Assembly: GCA_017447865.1 (NCBI GenBank)
Contig: JAFSMO010000059.1
Location: 44,544 to 108,543, forward strand
Length of the DNA: 64,000 bases
Source: Thermoguttaceae bacterium
GTDB taxonomy: Bacteria > Planctomycetota > Planctomycetia > Pirellulales > Thermoguttaceae
Direction: 5' to 3'
Every line of letters begins with the position of its first letter. Position 1 is the stretch's first letter. Below the pieces are notes generated by a model that was not told the DNA's origin, searched no databases, and was given only the letters and a program-made list of their open reading frames with translations. The position numbers and the translations under genes were made by a program. This document shows, in pieces, positions 39,880 through 57,613 of this stretch.

Positions 39880-42800
39880 TCAGGAAATCATCTTTCCAAG
39901 CGTGACTTCCAGTTCTTCCGTTTCTTCTTTCTTCACTTCATCCAAGACGTCATCCAACTCGAACGCCTCGTCTGACGTACTGAGAGGGGCCTCATTCGTC
40001 ACAGGCTGGGGAAGGGCCTCCTCGAGCAGTTCAGCACGCAAGGCGTTTTCTTCCTCGATCTGCTTCTGGAAATCAGGAGCTTGAGCCGTCCAGTCATTGA
40101 CGTATACGTTTCCGAAGGACGTCTGGAACGCCGGGACGGACTCGGAAATTGCTGCCGCCGGTTCAGAAACGGAAAGCGCCGCCTCGGGTTCAGGGGCCGG
40201 AAGTACCACAGGCTCGGGTTCCGAAAGTACCGCAGGCTCAGGGGCCGGAAGTACCGCCGGCTGTGCGGTTGGATTGCCCCAGTCTTCGGTCAGCGTGTCA
40301 GCGTAAACGATGGAACTTCCTTCCTTTTTGCCAAAATTCCGCGCGAAAAGAACCAGGTCGTTGATCTCCACCCTGCCACCGGCGTTGAAATCGGCCGCGC
40401 CCGTGATCGTGAATGGAACGGCCGGCTGGGCAAACACTCTCGCGAAAGCCACCAGGTCATTAATGTCAATGGTTCCCGAGTCGTCAAGGTCATAAACCAC
40501 AGGATAAACGGACGGAAGATCCTGCGTCGTGTTTTCGACCGTGGAGACGACCGTATCGTTCGTGTCTGCCATTACCACCGAATTTTCGATCTGGATTCCA
40601 ATCTCGACTCCCTCAACGGCGTAAGTTTCCGAAAGGTGCACACCGTCTTTTTGAGCGTAGAACTGAATACTTCCAAGAAGCACGTGATCCCCCACGCCTT
40701 CCAGGTCGCAGACCCCGACGTTTTCCACTCCCGCTTTCACGGAGGCCTGGATCTGGATTTTGTTCTCGTTGGCCACTTTCGTGACGGTCACGGAGCTGAA
40801 AATCGTGGAATCGTATTTCACGGAAATGTTTCCGTTCTTTATCGGATTGAATTTTGCCGGGTCGTAGGCAATCTCCGCTGTGTAACTCTTCAGACCGGTT
40901 TCAGTCGCGGAAAGAACGGAGGCCCAGACTTCGACCCAAACGTTCTGCCACTCGTCGATCCACTTTTCACTCGCGGGAATTTCCTGCCGCGATGCGCCGC
41001 CCGATTCGCCGGTTTCATCCAGCGAAGACGTTTTGCGGATGACCAGCGCCGTTTCTCCCTGAACATTCAGATTGATCGTTTGTTCCAGAGCGTCCAGTTG
41101 CTCGACCGGGCAGCCGGAAACCATCGAAACCGACGACGAATCCAGGAAAATCGAGATCTGATCGCCCGTTCCAGCCAAAACCGAACCGGCGGTCCATTTC
41201 AGAACGTTCCCATGGCGGGTAAGTGTGCCGGTGGACGTAATATTCACCCACGAATCGGAGCCGCTGGCCTTTTTCAGGATGGTCACGCTCGCGTTGGCGT
41301 TTTTGAGGTTTTCCTCGAAAGTCCAAATCGCTTCCAGCGAATCTTCCCGGGCGCGGATTTTCTGCTCCACGGAGGTTTGCGCCAGGGTGAGGGTCTGAGT
41401 CGCCTGCGCGTCCGTAAGGGTCAGAATGGAACCGTCCACCGAGCAGAAATCCTCGGCGCGAATCGTCAGCGTGGCCGTAGTTTGCGTAAACTGTTTGTAC
41501 GCGAACGTGAACGTGGCGGTCTTTCCATCGGCCGAAAGCGTAAAGCTGGAAGCGGAAACGCCATCGATCTGGACCGAAGATTTGGAAATCAGATCCGCGC
41601 GGACCGGTTTTTCCAAGGAGAGCGTCACGGTCGTCGGACGAGTGGTCAAGGTTTCCGAAATGGCGGCTCCGTTGACCTTCACACCGGTTTCCGTCAGGCC
41701 GAACGAGAATTCGTTCTGGGTGATTCCCTGGACCGTCATCACGTAGTCGCACTCGGCGCTCTCCGCCGTTCCGACGTAGAGGTAATATTCCGTTCCCGCC
41801 GTCGCCGAGTAGGTGAACGTCCCATTCTGAACCGTCCCCTGGATCTCTGTCCCGGCCTCATCGACGAGAAACACTTCAAGGTCTTCCACGTTTCCTCTCA
41901 ATCCCGCGCCGAACACCACAGAAATGGAGGACTCATCAGCCGTGAAGTGATAAATGTCCATCTGCGTGTCGTAAGGCCAGACAGTACTGGAGCAAAGCGT
42001 CAACTGCGTTTCCGGAGACGAGGCGGACGCGCCCGTCACGTAAAGGAAACCTTCGCGGATCTGAACCGCCTGAGGAAGTGCCCCGATGTTTTCCGAAATA
42101 ACCAGATCAGAAAGGATGAATCGGTCGTCTGCCGGAGACGCTTTTCTGAAGTCGAACGTGTGCAGTGCAATGCCGGAAGTATAATCTCCCGGCGCGGAGG
42201 CCGCAACCAAAACGCCGTTCTCGGAGGTGACGGAGTAGCCAAACCCAAGATCCGAGTCTTCCGCCAGACGCATGGAAGAACCGTTCATGGCAAGCACGAA
42301 AACCATCCCGTTGGAACCGGATTCCGTGGTCCACGTGCCGGTCTGCTGATTGTAAGCGCTGTACGTATTGGCTAAAGGCGCGCCGACAACGACCAGACCG
42401 GCGTCATCAATCGCCACGGAGTAACCGAAATTGGACCAGTTCTCACTCCACGAGAGCTGATTGTTTTGGATCACCGGGGTCTGCCCGTCCGCTTCCAGTT
42501 TAAGGTTCACCTGCCTGGCCAGCATCTGCGTCAAATTGTACGTTTCCGGTGTGGTTTCGCCTCCACTCAAGTCAAACAGATACGACATTTGGTAGGCCGT
42601 TTGCGAACCGACTACCAGAAGGCCCAAAGACTCCGAGTAATCCATGACGAAGCCGAAATCGTGGGAGCTTCCCGGGTTTTTAATCGTCTGGAACGGCGTG
42701 GAATTTCCTGCCGCGTTGATGGAATCCAAATCAAAGAGGTACACCGCGCCGGTCGTTCCATCGCCGTTGGAGTGACCTGGAGCCGAAATCGCCAGCGTGG

Positions 42801-45800: not shown

Positions 45801-47601
45801 CGGCCTTTCCGAAATTCGCCGAGGCGGATCCGTTGTAAGTTTGCACGAATTTCCATTCTGCCGAGGTTCCGGAAGAAATACAGCGGTAAAGGTGGATCGT
45901 TCCAACGAGCGCCAGACCGGTACTCGTCTGCGACGAAACCGCGATCTGGCCGTTCGCGAACGAAAGGGCTCTTCCAAAAGACGGTTCTATTTCCGACGAT
46001 TCAAGGTCCTGCTTCCAAACCCAATTATTGGTCCCCGCGTTCCAGTTAAAGATCTGGACCACCCACTGGCTGTTCTTTTGGCAGGTAACCGCGAGCCAGT
46101 TTCCTTCAAGAGCCGCCGCAGAGCCAAATTTGGTGACGGAATTTCCCGTGAGAGTGGTCTCCAACGTCCAAATTCCCGAATTGTTCTGTTTATAGAAAGA
46201 AAGCTTGCCGTCGGAAACGACGCACAGGCGGTTCTGCTCCGCATCCAGGACCATTTTGGAGCCAAAGCTGCTCACGGTCCCCTGGGTAAGCGTCTGGCCC
46301 AAACTCCAGTTGTCCCCGTCTTTTTCAAAAACGTAAACCATTCCCGAATCTTTTTCCGGAGCCGAAATGAAGAGGTAATTCTCCGCAAGCAAGACGGAAG
46401 TTCCGAATTTCGCGTCTGCCGGAAGAGACTCCACCGTAAGTTCGGTCTGGACCAATTCGCCGTCTTCCAGAGTAAAGAGGTACGCCGCATTTTCGTCCTG
46501 GACTCCTGCCAAAATCGAATCCCCGCAGATGGAGACGGCGATTTTACTGCTTGTACAGGCAAAGGAAGCCGAAGCAGTTTCCGACCATGAAGTTCCCTCG
46601 TACTTCCAAAGGGAGACCGTCGCGGACAAAGTATCTGAATCGTAAGAAACGACGGCGGCCTGGTTCCCATCGGAGTCCAGCGCACGAATCTTGCCGTTTT
46701 CAACGGACCGGGAAATTGTGTTCCAACTCCGATCCACGCCTTCCAACTGCCCAAAGAAAAGGTTCGAGGTGAGGCAATTCACCACCTGGGTTTCCAAGTT
46801 GGAGGAAGTATTCGCGCCAGCCCCGTCCGTGACTGTCAGCGTATAGTTGACCGTCGCGACTTCCGCGCCTTCCAGTGCGTGTACCCGAATGTAAACCGTG
46901 GAATTCTTCGCCGTCGCGGCAGAATTCAAAACCGCGGTAAAATCGTCAATATTCGTCGCGTAACCGAGTGGTTTTTCCGCTGTCTCGGAAGCGTAAAGCT
47001 CAAACGTCAAAGCCGATGCCGTGTCGGTATGGAGCTGAATATTGACGTTTCCGTGGGTCGTATTGAAAGAATAGCAGTCCGAATCATTCGTGCCAAGTTT
47101 CGGCGTGAGCTGACCGACGAGAACCGACTGTTTTATGGTTCCGACCGTCGTGATGCTCATATTCTGCGCGGAAGAAAGTACGTCATTCGTCTTGCTGGGA
47201 AGTTGAAATTCCGACTCAAAATTGCTTCCGCTGAACGCGACGAGCGTATAATTCGCCTCATGTTCCGAAAGGTTGGAAAGCGTATAAGTGATCGCATCCA
47301 CCGACGTCACGGAAACGCCGTCTCTCATGACGCTCTGCATCGAAGAGCTTGCTTGCCCGCCAAAATCGATCGACGTATTGACGCCATTCGTATTCAGGCA
47401 AAAAACCGAGAGCGTTTCCAGATTTCCCGTCTGAAACTCGATCGCGTATGTTTCGTGACTCTCCAAATCGAAAGTCTGGGTCCAGCACACCGCGCCGGTT
47501 CCCGCGGGCTGAATATCTGGAAGATACACAGGGACCGCACTCAGCAGCATACGACTTTCAAGAGATTCTAATTGAAGCGCACGATTTTTTTCACGTTTCA
47601 T
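39880..47601 (-). CDS. Giant secreted protein A (about 2,573 aa): LQLESLESRMLLSA N-terminal motif, PPC-like and FG-GAP-like repeats, Ig-like domains, and a C-terminal cohesin-like module plus dockerin pair
   Basis: The first ATG is at 47601 (MKREKNRALQLESLESRMLLSA); the track start at 47655 is a TTG with no Shine-Dalgarno. There are two clusters of FG-GAP-like repeats at about 45780..46420 and 42185..42840 (e.g. FGATLVLNGSTLAISAPG, FGYSVAIDDAGLVVVGAP). PPC-like modules are present (NDSDCYSF, GDSDVYRF). The C-terminal tail is acidic. Confidence 0.85.
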   Translation of the reverse strand: MKREKNRALQLESLESRMLLSAVPVYLPDIQPAGTGAVCWTQTFDLESHETYAIEFQTGNLETLSVFCLNTNGVNTSIDFGGQASSSMQSVMRDGVSVTSVDAITYTLSNLSEHEANYTLVAFSGSNFESEFQLPSKTNDVLSSAQNMSITTVGTIKQSVLVGQLTPKLGTNDSDCYSFNTTHGNVNIQLHTDTASALTFELYASETAEKPLGYATNIDDFTAVLNSAATAKNSTVYIRVHALEGAEVATVNYTLTVTDGAGANTSSNLETQVVNCLTSNLFFGQLEGVDRSWNTISRSVENGKIRALDSDGNQAAVVSYDSDTLSATVSLWKYEGTSWSETASASFACTSSKIAVSICGDSILAGVQDENAAYLFTLEDGELVQTELTVESLPADAKFGTSVLLAENYLFISAPEKDSGMVYVFEKDGDNWSLGQTLTQGTVSSFGSKMVLDAEQNRLCVVSDGKLSFYKQNNSGIWTLETTLTGNSVTKFGSAAALEGNWLAVTCQKNSQWVVQIFNWNAGTNNWVWKQDLESSEIEPSFGRALSFANGQIAVSSQTSTGLALVGTIHLYRCISSGTSAEWKFVQTYNGSASANFGKAVLLSADRMDVLDFEGNTVTTLTNYSNGDSWNLNVTSAGTKIEFQISKSETEMDVLILGPDGSEQTFTKTIGDDAVSVSFTPSRTGIYKVRLFSEVTRIYYLRTTSNALAAFSSGVAAQPKDRSNEVTVEYAQQILVSSLDSATAVFRDSHGAETVLELQGVVNGNQVVWNVPETVPNGAYTLNVSGLKAVSGASLNTLSVANYEFTGSHTLNLVPVGTEGSDVKRGELEISVGTTFEILDLTEEEAANVNFLVEGLNDYTIERTYDPEIHGLQVRILSGEATERVLVQAVLNASFASDEDLVPGSSVVGTLAASGAAKTQTFDLALASGQSVNLALTVTDPVSQEAVKMELFDSGGMLLAVDTLLAGDSESQWITTLKNTSPAAANYTVKLTNQTSGAADYTLQVISAQAPATATAQINVAGQSFLETFSSVSLEFSENVDLSTLAPSDFQLLLDGAAQTDYYVSACQVQDGTHVVLTFNAPLADGVWTLGLAVNEEESESIQTLAGTNFALTPAVFGIDSTNPAVDSITFSTDSSGKTRIHVKFSEAVLEARPTLTGKIYGQVDLMGGDGSYDEQTNIWTLTTLVELPSDFYTFSVSNIKDLAGNVTEGATTKGLAITSTSAETVSNVVSADPSTGWLPQYMDGSQAFVHQIVGCVTQSRYASFVLDGIEDGEQIAFSFMSPAGYSDPCWNDHIKAEWNAATKSVTIRYDASAHSGGLTAQESAQLTADMIYNGQKSGVFVMYILRNANYENADFTDPMNVQLSELGEKTDAQGNVQKIRQTSAMGTISSAGDSDVYRFTVDGKSTIFAGLTINSITLGTNTNFKIQLYEELPNGSRGTLLAEANSSSMGEKISDSLDVWIENVRNHSDEAQTFQLVVSASNVSASGALYTLVLTENAVFNAEKYTTVNTITELYDSNSAVGHVSSAIASFTSAGIYNSLDAASSAVYGDYVFVGDSTHNQVLIYAPNAAGTALEQVGTVKTSVSVSGDGFGATLVLNGSTLAISAPGHSNGDGTTGAVYLFDLDSINAAGNSTPFQTIKNPGSSHDFGFVMDYSESLGLLVVGSQTAYQMSYLFDLSGGETTPETYNLTQMLARQVNLKLEADGQTPVIQNNQLSWSENWSNFGYSVAIDDAGLVVVGAPLANTYSAYNQQTGTWTTESGSNGMVFVLAMNGSSMRLAEDSDLGFGYSVTSENGVLVAASAPGDYTSGIALHTFDFRKASPADDRFILSDLVISENIGALPQAVQIREGFLYVTGASASSPETQLTLCSSTVWPYDTQMDIYHFTADESSISVVFGAGLRGNVEDLEVFLVDEAGTEIQGTVQNGTFTYSATAGTEYYLYVGTAESAECDYVMTVQGITQNEFSFGLTETGVKVNGAAISETLTTRPTTVTLSLEKPVRADLISKSSVQIDGVSASSFTLSADGKTATFTFAYKQFTQTTATLTIRAEDFCSVDGSILTLTDAQATQTLTLAQTSVEQKIRAREDSLEAIWTFEENLKNANASVTILKKASGSDSWVNITSTGTLTRHGNVLKWTAGSVLAGTGDQISIFLDSSSVSMVSGCPVEQLDALEQTINLNVQGETALVIRKTSSLDETGESGGASRQEIPASEKWIDEWQNVWVEVWASVLSATETGLKSYTAEIAYDPAKFNPIKNGNISVKYDSTIFSSVTVTKVANENKIQIQASVKAGVENVGVCDLEGVGDHVLLGSIQFYAQKDGVHLSETYAVEGVEIGIQIENSVVMADTNDTVVSTVENTTQDLPSVYPVVYDLDDSGTIDINDLVAFARVFAQPAVPFTITGAADFNAGGRVEINDLVLFARNFGKKEGSSIVYADTLTEDWGNPTAQPAVLPAPEPAVLSEPEPVVLPAPEPEAALSVSEPAAAISESVPAFQTSFGNVYVNDWTAQAPDFQKQIEEENALRAELLEEALPQPVTNEAPLSTSDEAFELDDVLDEVKKEETEELEVTLGKMIS
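40331..40494 (-). other. Dockerin-type Ca-binding repeat pair of protein A
   Basis: The two repeats are YDLDDSGTIDINDLVAFARVF and ADFNAGGRVEINDLVLFARNFG. Confidence 0.8.
40500..40971 (-). other. Cohesin-like beta-sandwich module of protein A
   Basis: The sequence is SEKWIDEWQNVWVEVWASV...YTAEIAYDPAKFNP...LLGSIQFYAQKDG. The pattern resembles cohesin domains, judged by eye only. Confidence 0.55.
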
Positions 47602-47760: not shown

Positions 47761-50700
47761 CTATTCCTCGTCCATCTCGACTTCCAGGTCTTCACGAATG
47801 GTTCCATCCGTCATGCCTGAAAAATCGCCATCGAACAAGCTCTCGAACACATCATCCGTAACGGCGGTTGAAAGGTTCACTTCCACGTTTTCATCTTTTT
47901 CGAATTCCTGCCAGGCAGCATCAACCCGTTTTGCCGAAACTTCCATGACGGCCCTGGTTGCGGCCGCGGTCAGAATCTGGTTGAATTTCGCTTCCGACAT
48001 GATGGCCGAAGCGTCTGCAACCGTGACCCATTCCGAGGTTTCCGAAGAAACTCCACGAATTGCGTCGGTGGCATTTCCGAGGATCGCACCGCCATAATTA
48101 CGGGCAGCGTTCACGATTTCCGCGTCCACATCCGAAATTTCCCGACGGACTCCCACGTCAATGGTTTCGGTCATCAGGTCGTTTTCGTCATAAACGTGAC
48201 TTCCAATGACGACGTGCATATTGCCCGCTTCGTCGCGGTAGTTGGAAGATTTCACGTTCTTGCTGAGGAATTCATTGTAGCCGGAGTAGTTGGTCGTCAT
48301 GCCCAGCGCGTGGCCCAGTTCGTGCAGGAGGACCGTGTAGAGGTCATACTGTTCCGCCTGAACTTCCGCGTCTTTGCCCACGTACCAGCCCATTCCCAAA
48401 GCGTCCGAGTCAAGGTAAATCACGGCCGTATTCGGTTTACCATTTTCGTCGCAGTCGAGGAGAGAGGCTTCCGCCAGCGTGCCATTTACTTCGTTCGCAT
48501 ACTCTTTTACGATGATTTGAACATCAAGGTTCAATTCCTCGCCAAGTTTTTCGCTCCACGAATCCAGCGCACTCTCGAGCGTGTCGGAAATGTTGGAGTC
48601 GCCGCTCATTTCCAGCGTGGTTCCGATCCAGATCTGGAAGTAGTTCTTCGGGTAGTAAATTTTCGCGCCGTTGGCCTGCGTCGCTCCGAAGTTCTTCGCG
48701 AAGAAGATGAGGTCCTGGACGTCGATCAGCCCGTTATTATCGAAGTCAAGCGCCCACGCAAGCGAATCCGTGGAAACCACCGTGTTCGTACCAAACTTCT
48801 TGGCGAAAAGAACCAGGTCGTCGATGTCGATGTCGCCGTCGTCGTTGGCGTCGTACATGACCGCCAGCGCTTTCGTGTTCACGACCGTCTGCGTATTCAC
48901 GTCGAGCCAGAAGCTGGCCGAGTCACGCAGCTCGATGTTTTCGAGGCTCAGGCCAAGCGACGTGGTGCCGATGGTCTGGGCGGCAATGCCTCCGTTCCTG
49001 ACCGGCGTAAGCTGGATACGGCCGATCAAAACGAAGCCATCTTCCGTCGTGACGGCATTGGTCAGCGTGCCCGTGATTCCGTTCACGGTTCCGTTCCCGA
49101 AGGTGACGGCTCCCGCGTTGGAAACACTCGCACCGTACTCGATGCCGCTGGCGGTGTAGAGGCTGGAATCGTAATTCACGTCAAACTTGAAGTTCGCAAT
49201 GTCGGTTCCCACTTCCTGCGTGTTGACCCACAGTTCGAGCCAGCCGCCTTCCCACTCGGTGATGTAGGCTTCGCTCTTCGGGAGCGTGTCGGAAACTTCC
49301 ACATTGGATTTTTCCTTCACGAACGACATGTAGATGCCGTTTCCTTCCACGACGGTTTCTTTCGCCGCGCTCGTTCCTTTCACCGCGTTCGGGTTGAGGG
49401 TTCTGGTCTTGACCTGAGTCGCGGAGAGGTGCACGCCCTCGCTCGCATCCGGCAAGCCGGTTTCCGGGTCCACACCACCGCAGGCGCCAATGCCGCTCAC
49501 GATTTCATTGTCGAGGACCAGAGAGTACGTCGAGCTTTCCAGGTCACGGGCAAAATCGCTGATGGAGCAGTTTTCTCCAGCCGTGAAGGTCAGGTACATG
49601 ATCTGGTAGGATTCCGTGGTGAAATCCTTTCCTGCGGACGTTTCGACCACGCCGAGTTTGAGCTTGCCAACACCATCCTCATAGGTGGATTCCGAAGCGC
49701 CACTAGGCCCATACGTTCTCACATTCGTCACATTACTCAGAGAGAAGTAGGCGGTTTCGATGAAGCTCTGCGCCCCGTAAGGTTTCCCGTCAAGCAATGT
49801 TTCCGAAAGGAGCGGCAGGCTGCACTTGACCCACATCTGAACGGTGTAGGTCTCCCCGGACGTCAGCGTCGCAGTCGGATCCACGAATTCGCAGCCTGCT
49901 CCCGCAGCAATACTGGAGGCTGTCAGGCGCATGTCCGTGCCATGACTCAGCGTGTAGCAGACTTCAAACGGCTTTTCGTAATCAATGGAAAGGGTCAAAC
50001 CAACTTCTTCGCCACTGATCGTAACCACAGCAGTCTGCGCGCTGCGGTCCTGCGTGGAGTCATAGGGCGTGTAGTAGGCGTAGAACTTGCCCGTCTCGGA
50101 ATCGTACGTCACGAACCGGAACGGCGAGATGGTGCCGGCTTCGACTTCCGGATCCACGATCGAAATGATCCTTTCCGTCGTGCTGTCGTCAGAGAAGTCC
50201 ACGGCCGCGTAATAATCGTTCTCCGCAGCATCCGCGTCAAAGACGTACTGGACCGCGCCGCCGATCGAGCTGAAGTCAGTCACGGAGCTGATCGCGTCCG
50301 GATCCGAGACCGTAACCGAGATTTCGTCGCGCAGGAGCACGAAGCGGTCTCCCGTCAGATCGAACACTTTCTTGCTGGCCTGGTAAATCTTCTTGACCCC
50401 CGTCACATTGGAAACGGTTTCAACGATCGTGAAGTCCTGACCGAATCTGGAGTCCTGTGCCGCCACAGTCCCCGCGGCAATCGTGGAACCGGACGCCGCG
50501 GCGATGCTCTTGTTCGTGATGGTAATATCAGCCGTCAGGGTAATATCCGCATTAAGCGTAACCTTCCCGCTCGCACTGTATTCGCCGTCATCTTCTTCGA
50601 ATCCGTACGTTTCATACCAATCCTGAACTTCGTTACACTGGAAACCAAAGTTCTTCGCAAATTCCGTGCCGGCTTTCAGTACCGTGCCCGCCTTCAGGAC

Positions 50701-53700
50701 GGAACTCGTGGTAAACGTCGCCTGCGCGGTAAGATCCAGATCCTGATCCAGCGTCTTGTCGGACGGAAGAGCCGCACCCGACTGAATGTTCGTTTCCGTC
50801 AACGCCGTGGCGTCCAGACTGTCGTCCGTGATCATCGCGGAACCGTTGACCACCACGGTGTACTCGAAGTTGCTCGACAGACCGTTCTTCGTATCGTTCA
50901 CGGTCACTTCGATCGTGTAGGAGCCGAACCCGGCATCTTCGGGGATCGTGTACGTGGTCGAATCTCCGTAAACGACCTCAAGCGTATCGTTGCCGTCCGG
51001 GCTGAAGAATTTCCCAACCTCTTCGGAAAGGTCAAAGACGTCGCCGGGATCACCGGAAAGGACCAGGCTCGCGCCGTCCAGGACTCGCGGAGCGTCCTCC
51101 GTGTTGGTGATCTTTGCCGTCAGGGTAAAGCTGGAGGTCAGCGCCGCCGCTTTTTTCGTTCCGGCCGCGCCGTCGGTCACATTCACTTTGAACTCGATGG
51201 TCCCGTAGAAGTCTTTGTCCGCCGGCGAGAACCAGATCACTCCGTCCTCAATGTCTCCTTCGAAATCCATGAAATCGGCGGCTTCACCGGTACGGCCGTC
51301 AATGATCGTCGGCATATACGTGAAATCGATTCCAATCGTCAGAGCCGTGCCGTCCACCGGGTCAACGAAGAGGCCGTTGAGATCCCATGAGTAAACCGGC
51401 GTTTCGGATTCGTTGTCTTCGGGCAAGGTCTTGAAAGTGGACTGTCCGGGGATCAGCTCCGGCGCCCAGTTGTAACCGTCGATGCTGATGTAAAGCTGGG
51501 CGTAGTAGGTGGTCGTACCATTGGAAAGCATGTACTCGTAAACCGTGTCCACGTCGCAGCCGGCCGGGATGGTGACTCCAACGCCGTAGTTCTGATCCAC
51601 GCCAGCCAAAACGTCTTCGGAGCCGCGAACGAATTGAATGTTCACGACCTTGTACCCGTCCTCGGCGAAATCGGTGAATTCGCTGAGCGGAATTTCGTAG
51701 TATGCGTCAGCGTCGGAACGACGGTAGGACTTCGTGACGCTCTTGGCGATCGCGTTCAGCTTGATGATGAAATTGCCCGTATTCGCGCATTCCGTGTCGG
51801 TGTTCTGGATTTCGTAGGGGATCACGACCGTCGCGCCGTGCAGGGCTTCCCATTCCTCGCTCGTCCCGACGTTTCCGTCGATCGTGCCGCGGGTGAGCGT
51901 GAAGCCGTCTTCGGTCACAGCCAGGTTCAGAGTGTAAACCTTGTCGTCCTGGAAGATCGTATAGGTCGTTTTATTGTCGTTGACCGAGGTGAGGGCCAGG
52001 GTGCCGGAATCCGTGTCGGTATTGCACTGGGCGAGGACGTTATACTCCTGCGCCTCGGTGCTGGTGAGCGTGAAGCTGCCGGTCTGGGCGGGCGCGTACG
52101 GGTCGCACGGGTCGTTCGTGACCGTGACCGTCACGTCCGTCGTCTTGCCATTGACGCTCAGCGTCAGGACCCCCTCGCCGTAGGCGTAAGGATCCACGCT
52201 GTACGTCAGGGTGGAGCCGGTGAAGTTGTAGTCCGCGAACAGGGTCTCGATCGGGGTCTGGACGTGGGCCTCATCGACCGTGTTGCCGTAAACCGTCTCG
52301 GATTTGACGCTGATGCCGTAGGTCATTTCGCACGTGTAATCGCCCCAGGCCTGTTCCGGGTCAAAGGCGTTTTCGATCGTGACGGCGACTTCCTGAGTGG
52401 CAGCGTTTTCATCGACCGTCTGATTTCTGGCGGCGACGCTCTGAACGCCCGCCCATTCGATCAGGACGTCAAGAGTCACGCTCGTTTCCGCGTCAAAAGC
52501 GTCTTTGACGGTGATTTCGAGCGAGGTTCTGCCGTAAAGGCCTTCGGACGGAGTCCAAGTGATCGATTTGCCGTCGATTGCGCACTCGTCGCCGTTGATT
52601 TCAGCGGCCGAGATTGTCCACTCGTCGCCTTCCGGATCGGCGAAGTAGTTGGTCAGGTCGAACGTATAGGACGGGGTTTCCTCGAGTTTCTGCGTGTCGG
52701 TCAGCGTCGCCGTTTCGGTCTGTTCCGGCGCGAGGTTAACCTTGTCGATCGCCATATTGAGTTCTTTCACTGCCGACTGATCGAACGTGTCCGTGGCGGT
52801 GAGGGAGGTCAGCGTTCCAAACGTGTGCGACTGTTTCAGTGCTGCCGGATCAACGGTCAGTTTGAGGTTCCAGACGCCATTGTTGAACGTCCAGTCGGAA
52901 GCGGTCACGACGCCGTCAGCCCCTTCAAAATTGCAGGTGATGGTCAGCGCATCGCCGTTCTCGATGTCCGCGTCATCGAACAGGGCCGAGACTTCTTCAT
53001 CGGTGAACTGAACAGTGTATTCGGTCTGATTTTCCACGAATCCAATCGGTTCCTTCGCCTCGAGCGTCGTCCGGGTCACGGTCGGCGTGTGGTCGTAGGA
53101 GACGTCGATCGTCGTTTCGGAAATGCTCTCGTTACCGGCTTCGTCGATGGCCTTGAACAGGAACGTCTTCGTGCCGAATTCAAGCGCAACGCCGTCGCCG
53201 GGAACGTAATCGGTCCAGGTTTCCCCGCCGTCGGTGGAGTACTGGAACGCCACGTCTTCCAGGGCCGAAATATTGTCTTCCACTTCCAGATTAAATTCGA
53301 CCGAATCATTTTCATCCAGGAACAGGAAGCCGTAATCGCCTTCTTCAGCCGGAGCGTTGGCGACTTCCGTGACGGTCCAGACCGGGGCGGTCGTATCCAC
53401 GACGAACTCGATGATCGAGTAAACGTCGGACTTGTTGCCCGCGCCGTCCTCGACCTGGAAGGTGTAGCGGTGTACGCCATCTTCCAGAGCCGTATCGTCG
53501 TCAATGATCTTGCCCATGAAGTCAAAGTAATCGCCGATCAGCTCGCCATTGTGGAAAATGGAAAGTTTGCAGCAGTCCGGAACCAGGTCATTGACCACGA
53601 TCGTGTAAGCGATCCGCGGGTGATTATCGTTGGTGAGCGATTGATTCGGAGCGATTTTGTCATCGGACGTCTGGAGCTGGGAGCTCACCAAAGTGGCGGT

Positions 53701-56700
53701 CGGGGCCGTATTGTCCACGTAGAACTGGTACGTGCAGCTCGGTTCCTCCGCGGTCGATTCGTTGGCCGGGACCAGCGTGTCTTTGCCCCAGGCGGTCAGG
53801 ACGAACTTGGCGCCGTCCTCGACGCCGGTTTCGGTGTAGCTGACGTTTGCCGTCTCGCCGGAAGCGACCACCGTGGTCTCTTCACCCACGATTTTGCTGA
53901 GGCTCCAGCCACAGGTTTCGATCCCCGTGTCGTCCGTGATCGTCGCTTCGATGTGGAACTCGTCGCCGGTCAGGAAGTACAGCGTGTCGGTGTTTTTCGT
54001 GACGTTGCCGTCCTCGGAGGCGGTAACGGTGAGGTCGTCCAGCTGGATGGTCGGCGCGAAACTGTCGAACAGGTACGTGACGTCGAAGGAAACCGCCAGT
54101 TCTTTGCCGAACTCGTCAACCAGCGTAAAGGAAACGTTGGAGAAGCGGTCCGGTTCGCCCTGCTCCATGCCGGGGGTCATGGTGAAGACCAGGAAACCTT
54201 CTTCGATGGCGCACGCGCTCACGGCAGCGTCCTGATCGCTATTCCCGGTGATCGTGAAGCCGTCGCCCGTCAGCGTGGCAACCACTTCGTCGTTGAAGTA
54301 CTTCGTCAGGTCAAGCTTGATCTGCTCGTTTTCGTCGCAAAGGCTCTTGCTGAGCGTCTGGACGAATTTCTGCTCGTTCGCGTTGTAGAAGGCCCCCTGA
54401 GCGGTCGGCGCGGTGTTGAAAACGACGCTGAATTCCGCGGACGGATCGCTCGTATTGCCGGCGGCGTCCGTGGCAGTGTACGTGAACGTGTTCACGCCGT
54501 AGAAAAGCGTCACGTCGCACGAGTCAAACGTCTCGTTGGAGGAGTAGGTTTTCGTCTGGGCATTGCCGCCTTCGTCGGTGTAGCTCTGGGTGATCAGAAT
54601 GCTCGCCACGCCGGAAACCGCGTCCTGCGTGTCCAGCGTGAGCGTGTAATCGCTGTTCGTCACGCCGGTGGGGTCTTCCGCCTCGTTCGTGATCGCAACG
54701 GTCGGCGCGGTCGTGTCGAAGTAATACACCAGCCCGTCTTCCGGAGTCACCGTGAACTCATTGCCCGCGGCGTCAACCAGCTTGGCCGTGAACGTGTAAA
54801 TGCCGTCTTCGGGAAGCTCGGACGAGGTGATCTCCGCGCTCTCGGCATCGGCCGCCACTTCGACGGAGGCGACTTCCGTTCCGTCGCAGTAAAGGACCAG
54901 CGTGGCCGGCTCGGTCAGAGCGTCAAACGTGGCCTCAAAGCTCGGGGTGGAGTCCGTGTCGCGCTCGTTGACGCCGCTCAGAGCGAATTCAGCGTCTTCA
55001 ACGTCCACTTTCTGATCCACGAAAATCGTGCAGAGGAACGCGCCTTCGACCTCGTTCCCGAAATTGTCCTTCGCGTCGTAGCGGAACGTGTAGGCCTGAT
55101 TGTGGGCCGGGTTCTCAAGCAGGACTTCCGCCTGATCAAAGTCGACCATTTCAGACGTCGCGATGGGATTTTCCGGATCGTCGCCGTAAACGTAAATCGT
55201 GCCGGACTCGACGGTGTTGAAGTCGGTGAAGGTGAACGTCAGCGCCAGGTCATCCTCGCCGGTGTAATAGTACTCGTTCTCGGCTTTGTCAACCAGCGCG
55301 TCGTTCGCGTCCAGAGCGGCGACCGGCGCCTCGGTGTCGTTCGTCCACTTCAGATCAAACGAAATGTCGGCCGATTTGTCGTACTCGTCCGTGTAAGTGA
55401 TCACGATCCCTTCGGAAACGAACGTGGCGGTCTCGCCGTCGGTGAAGCTCGCGAGCGTCAGAACGATCTCGCCTTCGTCGTTGATTTCCCACGACGTAAC
55501 CGCGTCGCCGAGGTTTTCAATGTTCACGTTGTCGGCCACGATGCTCGAGCCGTCGACCTCTTTGAACAGGTCCGCGACTTTGCCGAGGTTCAGCTCGCCG
55601 TCCGTAACCGTGCCAACGGCCTGCTGGGATTCGTAATCGCTGGCGGTGGTGGAATCGGTCGTCAAACGAACGTCCGCGTCCTGGAGCTTCGTGCCTTTAT
55701 TCGTGACCTGCGGCGGTTTGTTGTAATCGTAGGTGAAGGTCTTGACCGACTGGTTTCCGGCGGCGTCCACAACGGTGAACGTCCAGATGTTCGTGCCGTA
55801 AGACTGATCCAGGGAGTATGCGTACTGGATCGACGAATCCGTCACACCCGTTTCCATCGGTTCGGCAGAATCGCCGCGATTGGAGGTCATCGTCACGCAG
55901 CCATCAGGATTCGTGATCATGAGATTCTCGTCCGTCACCGTGATTTCCAGTGGCGTCGTGGAGGTTTCGACGTACATCGAATCCGTGCCGTAATTCACGT
56001 TGTGGCCTTCAGCCGCCACGACCGGTTTTACGGTGTCGATCGTCAGCACTTCCTTCGAGCCTGTGGTCTGGTTGCCGGCCAGGTCCTCGGTGTAGAAGGA
56101 CAGCGAGTGGCAGCCGTTCGCAAGTCTGGGCAACGTCACGAAGAACTCATCATTCTGGAGTTTGGTGAGGTCTGAGTTCGTGAGCTTTTTACGGTACACC
56201 TCCGTCTGATCATCCTTCACCACGAGCCAGATCCCCATGTCCGGATTGGCGACTTCTTCGGAAACCGCATCCCAGTCGATCTCGCCGCTGGGGCTGATCT
56301 GGAATTCCGGCGTGGGGTCGTTGGTGTAAACCATGCCCTCGTAAATATTGTAGTCGGAAGTCAGCTGGGAAGCCACATCCAGCGCGGGCGCCAGCGAGTC
56401 GAAAACGTACGTGTAGGTCGTTTCACTTTCTTCCAGACCGTTATAACTGAAAGTAACCGTCACGGTGGAATTCGCATGAATGCCGCCCTCCAGAGGAATG
56501 GAAACATTATTGCCTTGGACGGTTACGTCTTCTTCGGTCAGGGTACGTTCGTTGCCTTCCGAATCGACGTAGTTAATGACCACTTTCACCGGGAGATTTT
56601 CCGAATCCGGAAGCGCGAACGTCACCGCGGGATCTTCAAAGGTCGATGGATCTTCATTGGAGATGAACCGGTTTTCCGAATTGGGGACAGCCGTGCCGGA

Positions 56701-57417
56701 AATTCCACCAACTTGCAGGTTTTCGATCTGGGGCGTGGTGGTGATCGTCGGGGAGAGCTGATAATTCGAGTCCTGAATATTGGCCGCGAGCTGCCATTCG
56801 TCCTGGCTAATTTTGCCATCATTGTTCAGGTCGAAGATTTTCGGCAGCTCAACGGTATTCAAATCAATCCCGTGCTGCTTATAGAACATGGCGGCAATTC
56901 TTTGGTTTTGTCCCAGCGAGTTCAAATAACTCCCCTGCACCTGGTAATATTCCTGCTCGGTGCCCTGACCATCCCCATTCAGGTCCAGGGGGTGCGTCAC
57001 AAAAACGGTCATCGGCCCATCCAACTGCGTGTCAGTCGTGAGGGTGAACGAGGACTTCGCGCCCATTTTCACGAGGAGGCACGAGATTTGCTCGTTCTCC
57101 GAGTCACGGACCTGGCTGAGAATCATCGCCGAATCACCATCTTTCAGTCTGAAGGTGGCATCGCTGTTTCCCTGAATGTACACCGCAACGATTTTGTCGG
57201 CGCAGTCTGAGGAAAGGTTGCTCTGAACCGTAAACGTATTCTGATTTACCTCTTTGCAGGCATCGGTGTCATTCGCAATGGCCGTCTGCATAATCGAAGT
57301 CGCTGACAAAAGGTGACGGTTCTCAAGGGCTTCCAACTGCAGGGAACGCGTCTTGCGATTTTCCTGCGTTTTGTGGTTACTGCTGTTCAGGTGACTGGAA
57401 ACAAAGTTCTTTTTCAT
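47761..57417 (-). CDS. Giant secreted protein B (about 3,218 aa): LQLEALENRHLLSA N-terminal motif, N-terminal EF-hand/dockerin-like loops, at least 7 Ig-like modules, a cohesin-like module plus dockerin pair, and a C-terminal HEXXH domain
   Basis: The ATG at 57417 (MKKNFVSS...) has GGTGGA upstream; the track start at 57423 is a TTG. Ig-like domain boundaries recur as D(T/S/N)xAP(T/V/A) (DTVKPVV, DTEAPVA, DTTAPTV, DSFAPTI, DNTAPTA, DTTAPVW). Ca-loops DLNGDGQGTEQE and DLNNDGKISQDE lie at about 56790..56990. Confidence 0.85.
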   Translation of the reverse strand: MKKNFVSSHLNSSNHKTQENRKTRSLQLEALENRHLLSATSIMQTAIANDTDACKEVNQNTFTVQSNLSSDCADKIVAVYIQGNSDATFRLKDGDSAMILSQVRDSENEQISCLLVKMGAKSSFTLTTDTQLDGPMTVFVTHPLDLNGDGQGTEQEYYQVQGSYLNSLGQNQRIAAMFYKQHGIDLNTVELPKIFDLNNDGKISQDEWQLAANIQDSNYQLSPTITTTPQIENLQVGGISGTAVPNSENRFISNEDPSTFEDPAVTFALPDSENLPVKVVINYVDSEGNERTLTEEDVTVQGNNVSIPLEGGIHANSTVTVTFSYNGLEESETTYTYVFDSLAPALDVASQLTSDYNIYEGMVYTNDPTPEFQISPSGEIDWDAVSEEVANPDMGIWLVVKDDQTEVYRKKLTNSDLTKLQNDEFFVTLPRLANGCHSLSFYTEDLAGNQTTGSKEVLTIDTVKPVVAAEGHNVNYGTDSMYVETSTTPLEITVTDENLMITNPDGCVTMTSNRGDSAEPMETGVTDSSIQYAYSLDQSYGTNIWTFTVVDAAGNQSVKTFTYDYNKPPQVTNKGTKLQDADVRLTTDSTTASDYESQQAVGTVTDGELNLGKVADLFKEVDGSSIVADNVNIENLGDAVTSWEINDEGEIVLTLASFTDGETATFVSEGIVITYTDEYDKSADISFDLKWTNDTEAPVAALDANDALVDKAENEYYYTGEDDLALTFTFTDFNTVESGTIYVYGDDPENPIATSEMVDFDQAEVLLENPAHNQAYTFRYDAKDNFGNEVEGAFLCTIFVDQKVDVEDAEFALSGVNERDTDSTPSFEATFDALTEPATLVLYCDGTEVASVEVAADAESAEITSSELPEDGIYTFTAKLVDAAGNEFTVTPEDGLVYYFDTTAPTVAITNEAEDPTGVTNSDYTLTLDTQDAVSGVASILITQSYTDEGGNAQTKTYSSNETFDSCDVTLFYGVNTFTYTATDAAGNTSDPSAEFSVVFNTAPTAQGAFYNANEQKFVQTLSKSLCDENEQIKLDLTKYFNDEVVATLTGDGFTITGNSDQDAAVSACAIEEGFLVFTMTPGMEQGEPDRFSNVSFTLVDEFGKELAVSFDVTYLFDSFAPTIQLDDLTVTASEDGNVTKNTDTLYFLTGDEFHIEATITDDTGIETCGWSLSKIVGEETTVVASGETANVSYTETGVEDGAKFVLTAWGKDTLVPANESTAEEPSCTYQFYVDNTAPTATLVSSQLQTSDDKIAPNQSLTNDNHPRIAYTIVVNDLVPDCCKLSIFHNGELIGDYFDFMGKIIDDDTALEDGVHRYTFQVEDGAGNKSDVYSIIEFVVDTTAPVWTVTEVANAPAEEGDYGFLFLDENDSVEFNLEVEDNISALEDVAFQYSTDGGETWTDYVPGDGVALEFGTKTFLFKAIDEAGNESISETTIDVSYDHTPTVTRTTLEAKEPIGFVENQTEYTVQFTDEEVSALFDDADIENGDALTITCNFEGADGVVTASDWTFNNGVWNLKLTVDPAALKQSHTFGTLTSLTATDTFDQSAVKELNMAIDKVNLAPEQTETATLTDTQKLEETPSYTFDLTNYFADPEGDEWTISAAEINGDECAIDGKSITWTPSEGLYGRTSLEITVKDAFDAETSVTLDVLIEWAGVQSVAARNQTVDENAATQEVAVTIENAFDPEQAWGDYTCEMTYGISVKSETVYGNTVDEAHVQTPIETLFADYNFTGSTLTYSVDPYAYGEGVLTLSVNGKTTDVTVTVTNDPCDPYAPAQTGSFTLTSTEAQEYNVLAQCNTDTDSGTLALTSVNDNKTTYTIFQDDKVYTLNLAVTEDGFTLTRGTIDGNVGTSEEWEALHGATVVIPYEIQNTDTECANTGNFIIKLNAIAKSVTKSYRRSDADAYYEIPLSEFTDFAEDGYKVVNIQFVRGSEDVLAGVDQNYGVGVTIPAGCDVDTVYEYMLSNGTTTYYAQLYISIDGYNWAPELIPGQSTFKTLPEDNESETPVYSWDLNGLFVDPVDGTALTIGIDFTYMPTIIDGRTGEAADFMDFEGDIEDGVIWFSPADKDFYGTIEFKVNVTDGAAGTKKAAALTSSFTLTAKITNTEDAPRVLDGASLVLSGDPGDVFDLSEEVGKFFSPDGNDTLEVVYGDSTTYTIPEDAGFGSYTIEVTVNDTKNGLSSNFEYTVVVNGSAMITDDSLDATALTETNIQSGAALPSDKTLDQDLDLTAQATFTTSSVLKAGTVLKAGTEFAKNFGFQCNEVQDWYETYGFEEDDGEYSASGKVTLNADITLTADITITNKSIAAASGSTIAAGTVAAQDSRFGQDFTIVETVSNVTGVKKIYQASKKVFDLTGDRFVLLRDEISVTVSDPDAISSVTDFSSIGGAVQYVFDADAAENDYYAAVDFSDDSTTERIISIVDPEVEAGTISPFRFVTYDSETGKFYAYYTPYDSTQDRSAQTAVVTISGEEVGLTLSIDYEKPFEVCYTLSHGTDMRLTASSIAAGAGCEFVDPTATLTSGETYTVQMWVKCSLPLLSETLLDGKPYGAQSFIETAYFSLSNVTNVRTYGPSGASESTYEDGVGKLKLGVVETSAGKDFTTESYQIMYLTFTAGENCSISDFARDLESSTYSLVLDNEIVSGIGACGGVDPETGLPDASEGVHLSATQVKTRTLNPNAVKGTSAAKETVVEGNGIYMSFVKEKSNVEVSDTLPKSEAYITEWEGGWLELWVNTQEVGTDIANFKFDVNYDSSLYTASGIEYGASVSNAGAVTFGNGTVNGITGTLTNAVTTEDGFVLIGRIQLTPVRNGGIAAQTIGTTSLGLSLENIELRDSASFWLDVNTQTVVNTKALAVMYDANDDGDIDIDDLVLFAKKFGTNTVVSTDSLAWALDFDNNGLIDVQDLIFFAKNFGATQANGAKIYYPKNYFQIWIGTTLEMSGDSNISDTLESALDSWSEKLGEELNLDVQIIVKEYANEVNGTLAEASLLDCDENGKPNTAVIYLDSDALGMGWYVGKDAEVQAEQYDLYTVLLHELGHALGMTTNYSGYNEFLSKNVKSSNYRDEAGNMHVVIGSHVYDENDLMTETIDVGVRREISDVDAEIVNAARNYGGAILGNATDAIRGVSSETSEWVTVADASAIMSEAKFNQILTAAATRAVMEVSAKRVDAAWQEFEKDENVEVNLSTAVTDDVFESLFDGDFSGMTDGTIREDLEVEMDEE
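48310..48324 (-). other. HEXXH zinc-binding motif (HELGH) in the C-terminal domain of protein B
   Basis: The context is VLLHELGHALGMTTNYSG. The position of the third metzincin His is Thr, so this is not a canonical HExxHxxGxxH. Confidence 0.6.
48683..48857 (-). other. Dockerin-type repeat pair of protein B
   Basis: The two repeats are YDANDDGDIDIDDLVLFAKKFG and LDFDNNGLIDVQDLIFFAKNFG. Confidence 0.8.
48858..49275 (-). other. Cohesin-like module of protein B
   Basis: The sequence is SEAYITEWEGGWLELWVNTQ...FKFDVNYDSSLYT...LIGRIQLTPV. It is colinear with the module in protein A. Confidence 0.55.
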
Positions 57418-57613
57418 GATCAATTTCCACCTTGCGGATGATTAAAACTGGAACTCACACAATATTATAAAAATACTGTCGTGAACAGAATTCTTGAATG
57501 AAACCTCACTGAGGGTTACGGGGACCTTCGTCAGGAATGGCACAAGAAACCCCCAAAATTTGGAGTGCTTCTCACCGGAAAACTGGCGCGATGTATTCAA
57601 GTACATCTTCGTG

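What the first reader, a model, noticed from the sequence alone, without database searches (positions are those of the whole stretch)
57301..57342. Conserved N-terminal LQLE(A/S)LE(N/S)R(H/M)LLSA motif in place of a classical signal peptide (second copy at 47536..47577)
Both giant proteins must leave the cytoplasm, given their dockerin, Ig and FG-GAP content. Their N-termini, however, are a basic stretch followed by an amphipathic, charge-rich LQLExLExRxLLSA. They lack the usual hydrophobic h-region of 10-15 residues. I recognise this LExRxLL(S/A) signature from the N-termini of many very large planctomycetal and verrucomicrobial proteins. I am not aware of a demonstrated function for it, whether as export tag, sorting signal or processing site. 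The two copies here share 10 of 14 residues even though the rest of the proteins is unrelated.
Basis: partly seen in the sequence, partly recalled or inferred. Interest (0 to 1): 0.7.

Follow-up and report, generated by a model that had tools for sequence, protein, structure and literature searches.

The report
Known planctomycete N-terminal export-type leader motif
Two neighbouring giant surface-type proteins of a Thermoguttaceae planctomycete start with a basic stretch plus LQLExLExRxLLSA instead of a hydrophobic signal peptide; this leader has been catalogued since 2004 (Pfam PF07595, NCBIfam LEPR-XLL), so the find is real but not new, and how the leader works is still unproven.

Summary
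On the minus strand, window 57301-57342 and 47536-47577 encode LQLEALENRHLLSA and LQLESLESRMLLSA. They lie 25 and 8 residues into two adjacent giant ORFs of 3218 and 2573 aa. Orthologues keep the motif through synonymous codon changes, so it is translated. Neither protein has a hydrophobic h-region, whereas other exported proteins in the window do.

It is not new. Both N-termini hit only Pfam PF07595 (Planc_extracel; Studholme 2004, proposed export signal) and NCBIfam NF012209 (LEPR-XLL), mostly below the curated cut-offs. Published proteomics places such proteins in the cell envelope of Tuwongella.

In my metagenome sample, 62 of 67 non-artefact occurrences sit within 100 codons of an ORF's 5' end. 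They follow a leader that is 25% Lys+Arg and precede otherwise unrelated extracellular-type proteins. Only 4 of 54 have a hydrophobic stretch.

No common secretion partner turned up in the neighbourhoods. SapC lies next to three loci of the LEPR subtype.

Best reading: a linear, non-hydrophobic N-terminal export or sorting tag recognised by unidentified machinery. The route and any cleavage are untested. Novelty: already known.

The parts
57301..57342 (-). Motif core of ORF A: LQLEALENRHLLSA (aa 26-39)
   Evidence: Translation. Only Pfam hit is PF07595, aa 26-40, 17.9 bits, E 0.0025. NF012209 gives 12.5 bits. 8 synonymous and 2 non-synonymous codon changes versus the L002 orthologue.
57343..57417 (-). 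Basic leader (n-region) of ORF A: MKKNFVSSHLNSSNHKTQENRKTRS, 6 Lys/Arg and 1 Glu
   Evidence: Translation. Conserved in orthologues P0010-P0012.
57426..57433 (-). Shine-Dalgarno-like AAGGTGGA, 8 nt upstream of the ORF A ATG
   Evidence: Read from the sequence. Conserved in L002.
47761..57417 (-). ORF A, 3218 aa, acidic (pI 4.05). Carries Big_13, Big_9 and cadherin-like domains, an EF-hand/dockerin pair and a C-terminal HELGH metalloprotease-like motif. No TM segment.
47536..47577 (-). Motif core of ORF B: LQLESLESRMLLSA (aa 9-22)
   Evidence: Translation. PF07595 19.5 bits, E 7.4e-4. NF012209 18.5 bits against a cut-off of 17 when the N-terminal 60 aa are scanned alone, but 12.5 bits in the full-length protein.
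47578..47601 (-). Basic leader of ORF B: MKREKNRA
   Evidence: Translation. Orthologues P0002-P0007 keep it.
39880..47601 (-). ORF B, 2573 aa, acidic (pI 4.23), with FG-GAP_2 and a C-terminal dockerin. No TM segment.
   Evidence: AlphaFold of aa 1-200: residues 1-20 have pLDDT below 50 and the beta-sandwich begins near residue 23.
48628..49284 (-). C-terminal module of ORF A (aa 2712-2930) shared with ORF B, ending in a two-loop dockerin
   Evidence: BLASTP A vs B, 28% identity over 245 aa, E 2e-18. EF-hand_7 E 3.4e-8.
40279..40980 (-). Matching C-terminal dockerin module of ORF B (aa 2208-2441)

Best explanation
The two sequences are instances of the planctomycete N-terminal leader already catalogued as Pfam PF07595 (Planc_extracel) and, more broadly, NCBIfam NF012209 (LEPR-XLL).

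Anatomy (shown): a Lys/Arg-rich n-region of 8-25 residues here (median about 30 in metagenomes), followed by the linear core L-x-[LF]-E-x-L-E-x-R-x-L-L-[SA]-A. The leader is predicted flexible and lies outside the first folded domain. No hydrophobic h-region follows it.

Mechanism (inferred): the leader serves as a non-classical N-terminal export or sorting tag for cell-surface proteins, especially giant adhesin-like ones. The basic n-region would hold the N-terminus at the cytoplasmic face. The invariant Leu/Glu/Arg pattern would be read as an extended peptide by a dedicated, still unidentified receptor, translocase or peptidase, rather than by insertion of a hydrophobic helix into SecYEG. 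The small-residue end LL[SA]A, often followed by Asp, is a plausible processing site.

The translocation route and any cleavage are untested.
For: Identity of the motif:
- PF07595 is the only Pfam hit of both N-termini.
- NF012209 hits both.
- All consensus positions of the published RRLxxExLExRxLLA are present, apart from the RR pair.

Translated and under selection:
- Orthologues at 48-86% identity keep the motif.
- Codon changes in the ORF A motif are 8 synonymous and 2 non-synonymous.
- A Shine-Dalgarno sequence is conserved upstream of ORF A.

Stands in for a signal peptide:
- There is no h-region in A or B, while nine other exported proteins of the window have one. These include a 2867-aa lipoprotein with a classical signal peptide and lipobox.

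Leader-like behaviour:
- AlphaFold gives residues 1-20 of ORF B pLDDT below 50, with the folded domain starting near residue 23.

N-terminal specificity and portability, from the metagenome scan:
- 62 of 67 assessable non-artefact hits have an in-frame stop within 100 codons upstream (median 49.5). The nuoF-antisense control class gives 9 of 48.
- The leader is 25% Lys+Arg and 5% Asp+Glu.
- Only 4 of 54 have a 10-residue hydropathy mean of at least 2.4.
- Only 25 of 1225 protein pairs are similar beyond the motif.
- Complete members carry FG-GAP, Ig-like, cadherin-like, fn3, DUF11, and CBM6 plus GDSL-lipase domains.

Localisation (literature): in Tuwongella immobilis, 52 proteins carry the motif, including 8 of the 10 longest. 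Twenty were detected, 8 of them only in the SDS (cell-envelope) fraction (PMC8567305). Another study counts Planc_extracel among signal-peptide families (PMC10952558).
Against: - No experiment shows that the motif is necessary or sufficient for export, that it is cleaved, or which machinery reads it.
- Both window proteins score below Pfam's gathering cut-off (17.9 and 19.5 bits against 25.5). In the full-length context they also fall below NCBIfam's cut-off.
- No secretion-system gene lies in the 64-kb window.
- No common partner appears among 212 neighbouring ORFs of metagenome loci.
- In Proteobacteria and Chlorobi, LEPR-XLL heads proteins that carry RTX modules or sit next to TolC-type genes. 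There, a C-terminal type I signal could be the real export signal.
- I could not run SignalP or a comparable predictor.
Confidence: 0.6

Rival explanations
1. The proteins are exported C-terminus-first by a type I-like (ABC/MFP/TolC) system. The N-terminal basic-plus-LExLExRxLL element is then not the export signal. It would be a retention, anchoring or processing element that leaves the cell last, analogous in role to the N-terminal retention module of LapA-type adhesins.
For: - LEPR-XLL heads an ~8000-aa Vibrio protein with C-terminal RTX and serralysin domains (PMC10868602).
- The Chlorochromatium LEPR giants Cag_663 and Cag_665 flank a TolC-like gene and follow a sapC gene (bioRxiv 10.64898/2026.03.19.712371).
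- SapC lies directly upstream of three LEPR-type metagenome loci whose giant proteins show no mutual similarity beyond the leader in BLAST (one is truncated at 98 aa).
- ORF A and ORF B are very acidic (pI about 4.1), lack TM segments, and ORF A ends in Ca-binding loops and a weak M10/serralysin-like HELGH motif, which is a type I-substrate-like make-up.
Against: - Neither protein has RTX nonapeptides.
- No ABC, MFP or TolC gene is present in the window or in loci L002-L004.
- In the neighbour census, OEP and ABC transporter families each appeared only once among 212 ORFs.
- The motif also heads ordinary-sized enzymes: trypsin-like proteases and a glucose dehydrogenase in T. immobilis, and a CBM6-GDSL lipase.
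- SapC is predicted to be an enzyme that occurs in unrelated gene clusters (PMC2938197).
Confidence: 0.2
2. It is an unusual but ordinary Sec/SPase I signal peptide. The basic stretch plus motif form an extended n-region, the weakly hydrophobic residues from LLSA onward act as a short h-region, and L-[SA]-A satisfies the -3/-1 rule.
For: - It has an N-terminal position and a positively charged leader, as in Sec signals.
- ORF B has an 11-residue uncharged stretch MLLSAVPVYLP with a Kyte-Doolittle mean of 1.98.
- LL[SA]A followed by Asp in 39% of sampled members resembles a -3/-1 cleavage site with an acidic +1 residue (the -3/-1 rule is established knowledge).
Against: - ORF A has only 8 uncharged residues after the Arg and its hydropathy maximum is 1.48. 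A distant B-like homologue has VLLTV followed by Asp.
- In 54 metagenome members, the median maximum hydropathy from the start to motif+45 is 1.59. Only 4 reach 2.4, the lowest value seen among classical signal peptides in this window.
- The invariant Glu, Glu and Arg have no role in a Sec signal.
- The same organism uses normal signal peptides, even on a 2867-aa protein.
Confidence: 0.13
3. The motif is not a functional protein feature. It is either a chance similarity, or the true starts lie downstream so the motif is not translated.
For: ORF B has an in-frame ATG (Met18) inside the motif, and one database gene call starts there (P0001). At the DNA level the pattern also arises trivially on the antisense strand of nuoF.
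Against: - Synonymous changes outnumber non-synonymous ones within the motif.
- The motif is conserved in orthologues down to 26-38% identity.
- ORF A has a conserved Shine-Dalgarno sequence upstream.
- Shuffles of the window give 0.00 expected matches.
- The motif shows N-terminal specificity in metagenomes.
Confidence: 0.02

Closest known systems
Pfam PF07595 Planc_extracel ('Planctomycete extracellular'; Studholme, Fuerst & Bateman 2004)
   Same: N-terminal position, a basic stretch, then the L-x-x-E-x-L-E-x-R-x-L-L-[AS] core. Planctomycete host, extracellular-type domains downstream, no hydrophobic core. It is the only Pfam hit of both N-termini.
   Different: Scores are below the gathering cut-off (17.9 and 19.5 bits against 25.5). 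The RR pair of the Rhodopirellula consensus is replaced by scattered K/R (…NRKTRS, …KNRA).
NCBIfam NF012209 LEPR-XLL / LEPR-8K domain
   Same: A short N-terminal signature on very large proteins. ORF B's isolated N-terminus passes the cut-off (18.5 against 17 bits).
   Different: The eponymous Pro is Asn or Ser here. ORF A scores 12.5 bits, as does ORF B in its full-length context. The LEPR subtype is typically followed by Asp (LLSAD) and is found in Proteobacteria and Chlorobi with RTX, TolC or SapC context. None of that context is seen here.
Classical Sec (SPase I / II) signal peptides
   Same: N-terminal, with a positively charged n-region and small residues at the putative -3/-1 positions.
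   Different: There is no 7-15-residue hydrophobic h-region. Three invariant charged residues sit where it should be.
Tat signal peptides (S/T-R-R-x-F-L-K)
   Same: A conserved charged motif near the N-terminus. The Rhodopirellula consensus starts with RR.
   Different: These two proteins have no twin arginine and no h-region. Multi-thousand-residue modular proteins are implausible Tat cargo (established knowledge, inference).
N-terminal extensions of classical signals: ESPR (PF13018, type V secretion) and YSIRK-G/S
   Same: A conserved N-terminal motif associated with very large surface proteins.
   Different: ESPR and YSIRK precede or sit within a normal signal peptide with an h-region. Here nothing hydrophobic follows.
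Double-glycine leader peptides of C39-peptidase ABC exporters
   Same: A short non-hydrophobic N-terminal leader with spaced Leu and Glu. If cleavage followed SA, then Leu at -4 and -12 and Glu at -8 would coincide with leader positions (my own alignment from memory, a lead only).
   Different: The -7 position is a helix breaker (Pro/Asn/Ser/Asp) instead of a hydrophobic residue. The end is SA or AA, not GG. No C39 ABC exporter is nearby. Known cargo is small.
LapA/BapA-type type I-secreted adhesin N-terminal retention module
   Same: An N-terminal element on giant acidic Ca-binding adhesins. Distant Big_13 homologues of ORF A in Acinetobacter and Limnobaculum are of this type.
   Different: The retention module is a folded domain of about 100 aa or more. 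Here it is an unstructured linear motif of about 14 residues.

Membership tests
Pfam PF07595 Planc_extracel | HMM score at or above the gathering cut-off (25.5 bits) | tested here: not met
   17.9 bits (A) and 19.5 bits (B), E 2.5e-3 and 7.4e-4. It is the only family hit. A metagenome member found with the same pattern does pass (L055, 26.1 bits).
Pfam PF07595 Planc_extracel | Consensus RRLxxExLExRxLLA located at the extreme N-terminus | tested here: met
   L, E, L, E, R, L, L and the final A are all present at aa 26-39 (A) and 9-22 (B). The consensus penultimate A is Ser here. The RR pair is replaced by dispersed K/R.
Pfam PF07595 Planc_extracel | Planctomycete protein with extracellular-type domains and no classical signal peptide | tested here: met
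   Thermoguttaceae relatives. Big_13, Big_9, cadherin-like, FG-GAP and dockerin domains. No h-region.
Pfam PF07595 Planc_extracel | Acts as an export signal | not testable with these tools
   Only proposed (Studholme 2004, via PMC8567305). Supported indirectly by envelope-fraction proteomics.
NCBIfam NF012209 LEPR-XLL (LEPR-8K) | HMM score at or above the curated cut-off (17 bits) | tested here: inconclusive
   B scores 18.5 bits when the first 60 aa are scanned alone but 12.5 bits as a full-length protein. A scores 12.5 bits.
NCBIfam NF012209 LEPR-XLL (LEPR-8K) | LEPRxLL signature | tested here: not met
   LENRHLL and LESRMLL: the Pro is replaced. A more distant A-like homologue, P0013, has LEPRHLL.
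NCBIfam NF012209 LEPR-XLL (LEPR-8K) | N-terminus of a very large protein | tested here: met
   3218 and 2573 aa.
Sec/SPase I signal peptide | Hydrophobic h-region of about 7-15 residues after a basic n-region | tested here: not met
   Hydropathy maxima of 1.48 and 1.98 against 2.4-3.8 for classical signals in the window. SignalP was not available.
Tat signal peptide | Twin-arginine S/T-R-R-x-F-L-K followed by an h-region | tested here: not met
   Neither leader has RR and no h-region follows.
Type I secretion substrate (RTX type) | GGxGxD nonapeptide repeats near the C-terminus and a nearby ABC/MFP/TolC system | tested here: not met
   No GG.G.D matches. No such genes in the window. A non-RTX C-terminal signal cannot be excluded.

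The most novel reading that the evidence does not exclude
The PF07595 / LEPR-XLL leader is the address tag of a distinct, still undiscovered export or processing pathway for giant surface proteins. The pathway would be shared by Planctomycetes and by Proteobacteria and Chlorobi. The leader would be read as an extended charged peptide, possibly after enzymatic modification or cleavage; SapC-family enzymes adjacent to LEPR-type genes are one candidate partner. It would not be read by Sec, Tat or a C-terminal type I signal.
Probability: 0.25. Interest if true: 0.8.

Novelty: already known. Interest (0 to 1): 0.27.

Why it matters
Planctomycetes encode some of the largest bacterial proteins, and how these leave the cytoplasm without a recognisable signal peptide has been an open question since the motif was described in 2004. 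These two genes are clean, well-conserved examples sitting next to proteins with normal signal peptides. They could serve as test substrates, but they add no new kind of feature.

Practical value:
- Gene callers sometimes start such genes at an internal Met and delete the leader (P0001).
- Signal-peptide-based secretome predictions will miss these proteins.
- DNA-level motif searches must filter out nuoF antisense hits.

The small neighbourhood census, which found no common partner and SapC beside three LEPR-type loci, is only a lead.

Tried and rejected
1. Genome-collection scan with an alignment of leaders. 

2. Profile search of the 5.8-billion-protein set with a leader alignment (six real leaders from this window and its homologues plus ten designed probes). 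It returned only 33 fragments of 40-83 aa, because short targets score best. These illustrate the family but are not a census.

3. Exact look-up of ORF B in the assembly collection: not on record.

4. Neighbourhood census of 212 ORFs around 62 metagenome loci. No shared secretion, sortase-like or peptidase family was found. Two-component and c-di-GMP genes recur but are common everywhere.

5. Synteny of the BBP2 porin and the YhdP/AsmA-like gene with ORF A holds in the nearest relative (L002) but not in L003 or L004, so I did not treat them as partners.

6. Tat signal: rejected, because there is no RR, no h-region, and the cargo is giant and modular.

7. Double-glycine/C39 leader analogy: rejected as membership, because of the helix breaker at -7 and the SA end instead of GG.

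8. ESPR/YSIRK-type extension: rejected, because no classical signal follows.

9. The N-terminal 40 aa are more conserved than the protein average, but only in the top 10-30% of windows, so this is not an extreme outlier.

10. Literature searches for literal motif strings found nothing beyond PMC8567305 and one 2026 preprint.
Full report
**1. The observation**

On the minus strand, window 57301-57342 encodes LQLEALENRHLLSA and 47536-47577 encodes LQLESLESRMLLSA. Each lies just inside a giant ORF.

- ORF A is 47761-57417(-), 3218 aa. It begins MKKNFVSSHLNSSNHKTQENRKTRS followed by the motif.
- ORF B is 39880-47601(-), 2573 aa. It begins MKREKNRA followed by the motif.

A DNA pattern for LE.LE.R.LL[SA]A matches the window once, against 0.00 expected in shuffles. 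A six-frame scan with the looser pattern L[ED].R.[LMVIF][LMF] gave five hits, of which only these two carry the full motif.

The two proteins are not otherwise unrelated. BLASTP finds a shared C-terminal module of about 245 aa that ends in a two-loop dockerin (E 2e-18), in addition to the leader (E 0.002). The central parts differ. A has Big_13, Big_9, cadherin-like and EF-hand domains. B has FG-GAP.

**2. Is the motif translated?**

Orthologues from Thermoguttaceae-like metagenome contigs keep the motif:
- B orthologues at 61-86% identity.
- A orthologues at 48-83% identity.
- More distant homologues at 26-38% identity (…VEALESRVLLTV, …MEQLEPRHLLSS).

ORF A was compared with its orthologue in L002 (48% identity by BLASTP; 50% over the MAFFT alignment). 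The 15 motif codons show 8 synonymous and 2 non-synonymous changes, both at variable 'x' positions. ORF B shows 4 and 3. If about 30% of random codon changes are synonymous, 8 or more out of 10 has a probability near 0.002 (my rough binomial estimate).

ORF A has a conserved AAGGTGGA 8 nt before its ATG. One database gene model (P0001, 100% identical to B) starts at the internal Met18 and another (P0006) starts too far upstream. The conservation pattern favours the MKREKNRA start. The refutation 'true starts lie downstream' therefore fails.

**3. Is there a classical signal peptide?**

The best 10-residue Kyte-Doolittle mean in the first 100 aa is 1.48 for A and 1.98 for B. The longest runs free of D, E, K, R, N, Q and H are 8 and 11 residues.

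Nine other exported or membrane proteins in the same window score 2.4-3.8 with runs of 12-22. Among them is a 2867-aa thioredoxin-repeat lipoprotein with a textbook signal peptide and lipobox. This organism therefore uses ordinary signals, even on a giant protein, but not on A and B.

Neither protein has a TM-like segment anywhere. Both are very acidic (pI 4.05 and 4.23).

AlphaFold of ORF B residues 1-200, using a shallow alignment of 6 sequences, gives residues 1-20 pLDDT below 50. A beta-sandwich begins near residue 23. The motif therefore behaves as a flexible leader, not as part of a domain. No signal-peptide predictor was available.

**4. What it is**

Scanned alone, both N-termini hit exactly one Pfam family, PF07595 Planc_extracel (17.9 and 19.5 bits, gathering cut-off 25.5). 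They hit one NCBIfam model, NF012209 'LEPR-XLL domain'. B scores 18.5 bits against a cut-off of 17 as an isolated N-terminus but 12.5 bits in the full-length context. A scores 12.5 bits.

The literature covers this feature.
- The same paper finds 52 such proteins in Tuwongella immobilis, including 8 of the 10 longest. It detects 20 by mass spectrometry, 8 of them only in the SDS (envelope) fraction.
- PMC10952558 lists Planc_extracel among signal-peptide families.
- LEPR-XLL is also reported on an ~8000-aa Vibrio RTX/serralysin protein and on a Limnohabitans protein.
- It is also reported on the 20,000-36,000-aa Chlorochromatium proteins Cag_663 and Cag_665, which sit beside tolC-like and sapC genes.

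**5. Enrichment test**

I scanned the metagenome collection with YTNGARNNNCTNGARNNNCGNNNNYTNYTNKCNGCN.

Fifty-three matches are the antisense strand of nuoF. The sense strand there encodes …ICGEETALLESLEGK…. This class makes a convenient negative control.

Of the other 68:
- 62 of 67 assessable have an in-frame stop within 100 codons upstream (median 49.5). The control gives 9 of 48 (median 257).
- The motif starts a median of 30-33 codons after the first start codon.
- The leader is 25% Lys+Arg and 5% Asp+Glu.
- The hydropathy maximum from the start to motif+45 has a median of 1.59. It reaches 2.4 in only 4 of 54.
- Downstream ORFs run to at least 3754 aa, and 10 exceed 1000 aa.
- The unconstrained position after LL[SA]A is Asp in 39%.

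Beyond the motif, only 25 of 1225 protein pairs are similar. Of nine complete members scanned, seven have recognisable domains, which include FG-GAP, DUF1573, Ig-like, fn3, cadherin-like, DUF11, DUF4347, SdrD_B, and CBM6 plus GDSL-lipase domains. One passes PF07595's cut-off.

The motif is therefore a portable, N-terminal-specific module on extracellular-type proteins that lack an h-region. The sample is the first rows returned by the scan, not a random draw.

**6. Partners**

The 64-kb window contains no recognisable secretion system.

Divergent from ORF A lie a BBP2 beta-barrel porin and a 1144-aa YhdP/AsmA-like protein. Both are syntenic in the nearest relative L002, but not in L003 or L004. 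The A-like plus B-like tandem pair itself is conserved in L002 and L003.

Among 212 ORFs neighbouring the metagenome loci, no secretion, sortase-like or peptidase family recurs. OEP and ABC transporter families appear once each.

SapC (PF07277, E about 1e-70) lies directly upstream in three loci of the LEPR/LLSA[DE] subtype. Their giant proteins show no mutual similarity beyond the leader in BLAST, though one of them (L016) is truncated at 98 aa. This echoes the Chlorochromatium arrangement. SapC is predicted to be an uncharacterised enzyme and also occurs in unrelated clusters (PMC2938197). This is a lead for the LEPR subtype only. Nothing similar was seen around the planctomycete loci.

**7. 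Mechanism**

Shown:
- The leader is N-terminal, basic, non-hydrophobic and conserved at the protein level.
- It is portable between unrelated proteins.
- It is attached to proteins with extracellular-type domains.

Published: such proteins fractionate with the cell envelope.

Inferred (confidence about 0.6): the leader is a linear targeting or sorting tag recognised by dedicated machinery, possibly processed at LL[SA]A.

Rivals:
- A type I-like, C-terminus-first route in which the leader is a retention or processing element (0.2). It is supported by the RTX, TolC and SapC contexts of the LEPR subtype and by the acidic, Ca-binding make-up of A and B. It is weakened by the absence of RTX repeats and nearby type I genes, and by the motif's presence on ordinary enzymes.
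- An atypical Sec/SPase I signal with a vestigial h-region (0.13). It is weakened by the hydropathy data and the invariant charged residues.
- Chance or an untranslated motif (0.02).

**8. Verdict**

It remains mechanistically unsolved, and these two genes do not by themselves make the question more testable. Interest is low to moderate.

Noticed in passing
window 48628-49284(-) and 40279-40980(-): ORF A and ORF B share a C-terminal module of about 245 aa (28% identity, E 2e-18) that ends in a two-repeat dockerin (…YDxxDDGxIDIxDLVxFAxxFG… twice). The two giants are therefore bracketed by the same leader and the same C-terminal module around unrelated cores.
   Followed up: partly
window ~48301-48324(-), ORF A aa 3032-3039: HELGHALG zinc-metalloprotease motif near the C-terminus of ORF A, with weak Peptidase_M10 and snapalysin hits. 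This may be a protease domain on an adhesin-like giant.
   Followed up: no
window 39880-57417(-); L002 10001-27480; L003 4128-22893: The A-like and B-like giant genes form a conserved tandem pair in relatives down to about 38% and 26% identity, which suggests they act together.
   Followed up: partly
window 57954-59453(+) and 59582-63016(+): A BBP2 (OmpL-like) beta-barrel porin and a 1144-aa N-terminally anchored protein lie divergent from ORF A. The orthologue of the latter has a faint YhdP/AsmA hit. Both are syntenic in L002 but absent from L003 and L004.
   Followed up: partly
window 47636-47653(-), between the ORF A stop and the ORF B start: A hairpin plus T-run, GGTTGTTTCATTACGGCC-TTTT, is conserved across three orthologous loci and is better conserved than the surrounding intergenic DNA. 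It is terminator-like by the simple scan.
   Followed up: partly
window 14959-23562(+): A 2867-aa predicted lipoprotein (signal ending in the lipobox LLSGC) with at least four redoxin/thioredoxin/AhpC-like domains. This is an unusual giant thiol-redox protein.
   Followed up: no
Metagenome loci such as L012 823-857(-); 53 of the 121 pattern matches: The antisense strand of nuoF (sense …ICGEETALLESLEGK…) reads LERLEQRGLLAADVGA. It produces a large false-positive class for DNA-level searches of this motif.
   Followed up: yes
L016 3198-4031(-), L028 6247-6978(-), L051 1330-2226(-): SapC-family genes (PF07277, E about 1e-70) lie directly upstream of LEPR-type giant genes whose products show no mutual similarity beyond the leader in BLAST (the L016 product is truncated at 98 aa). 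This matches the sapC-giant-tolC arrangement reported for Chlorochromatium.
   Followed up: partly
Database proteins P0001 and P0006 (orthologues of ORF B): Gene callers disagree on the start. P0001 begins at the internal Met18 and loses the leader. P0006 is extended 55 aa upstream. Leaders of this family are easily mis-annotated.
   Followed up: yes
window 29007-31772(-), 12216-13277(+), 1733-1805(+): A DUF642 protein with a PEP-CTERM anchor, a DUF1559/N-methyl prepilin-like protein typical of Planctomycetes, and one tRNA gene.
   Followed up: no
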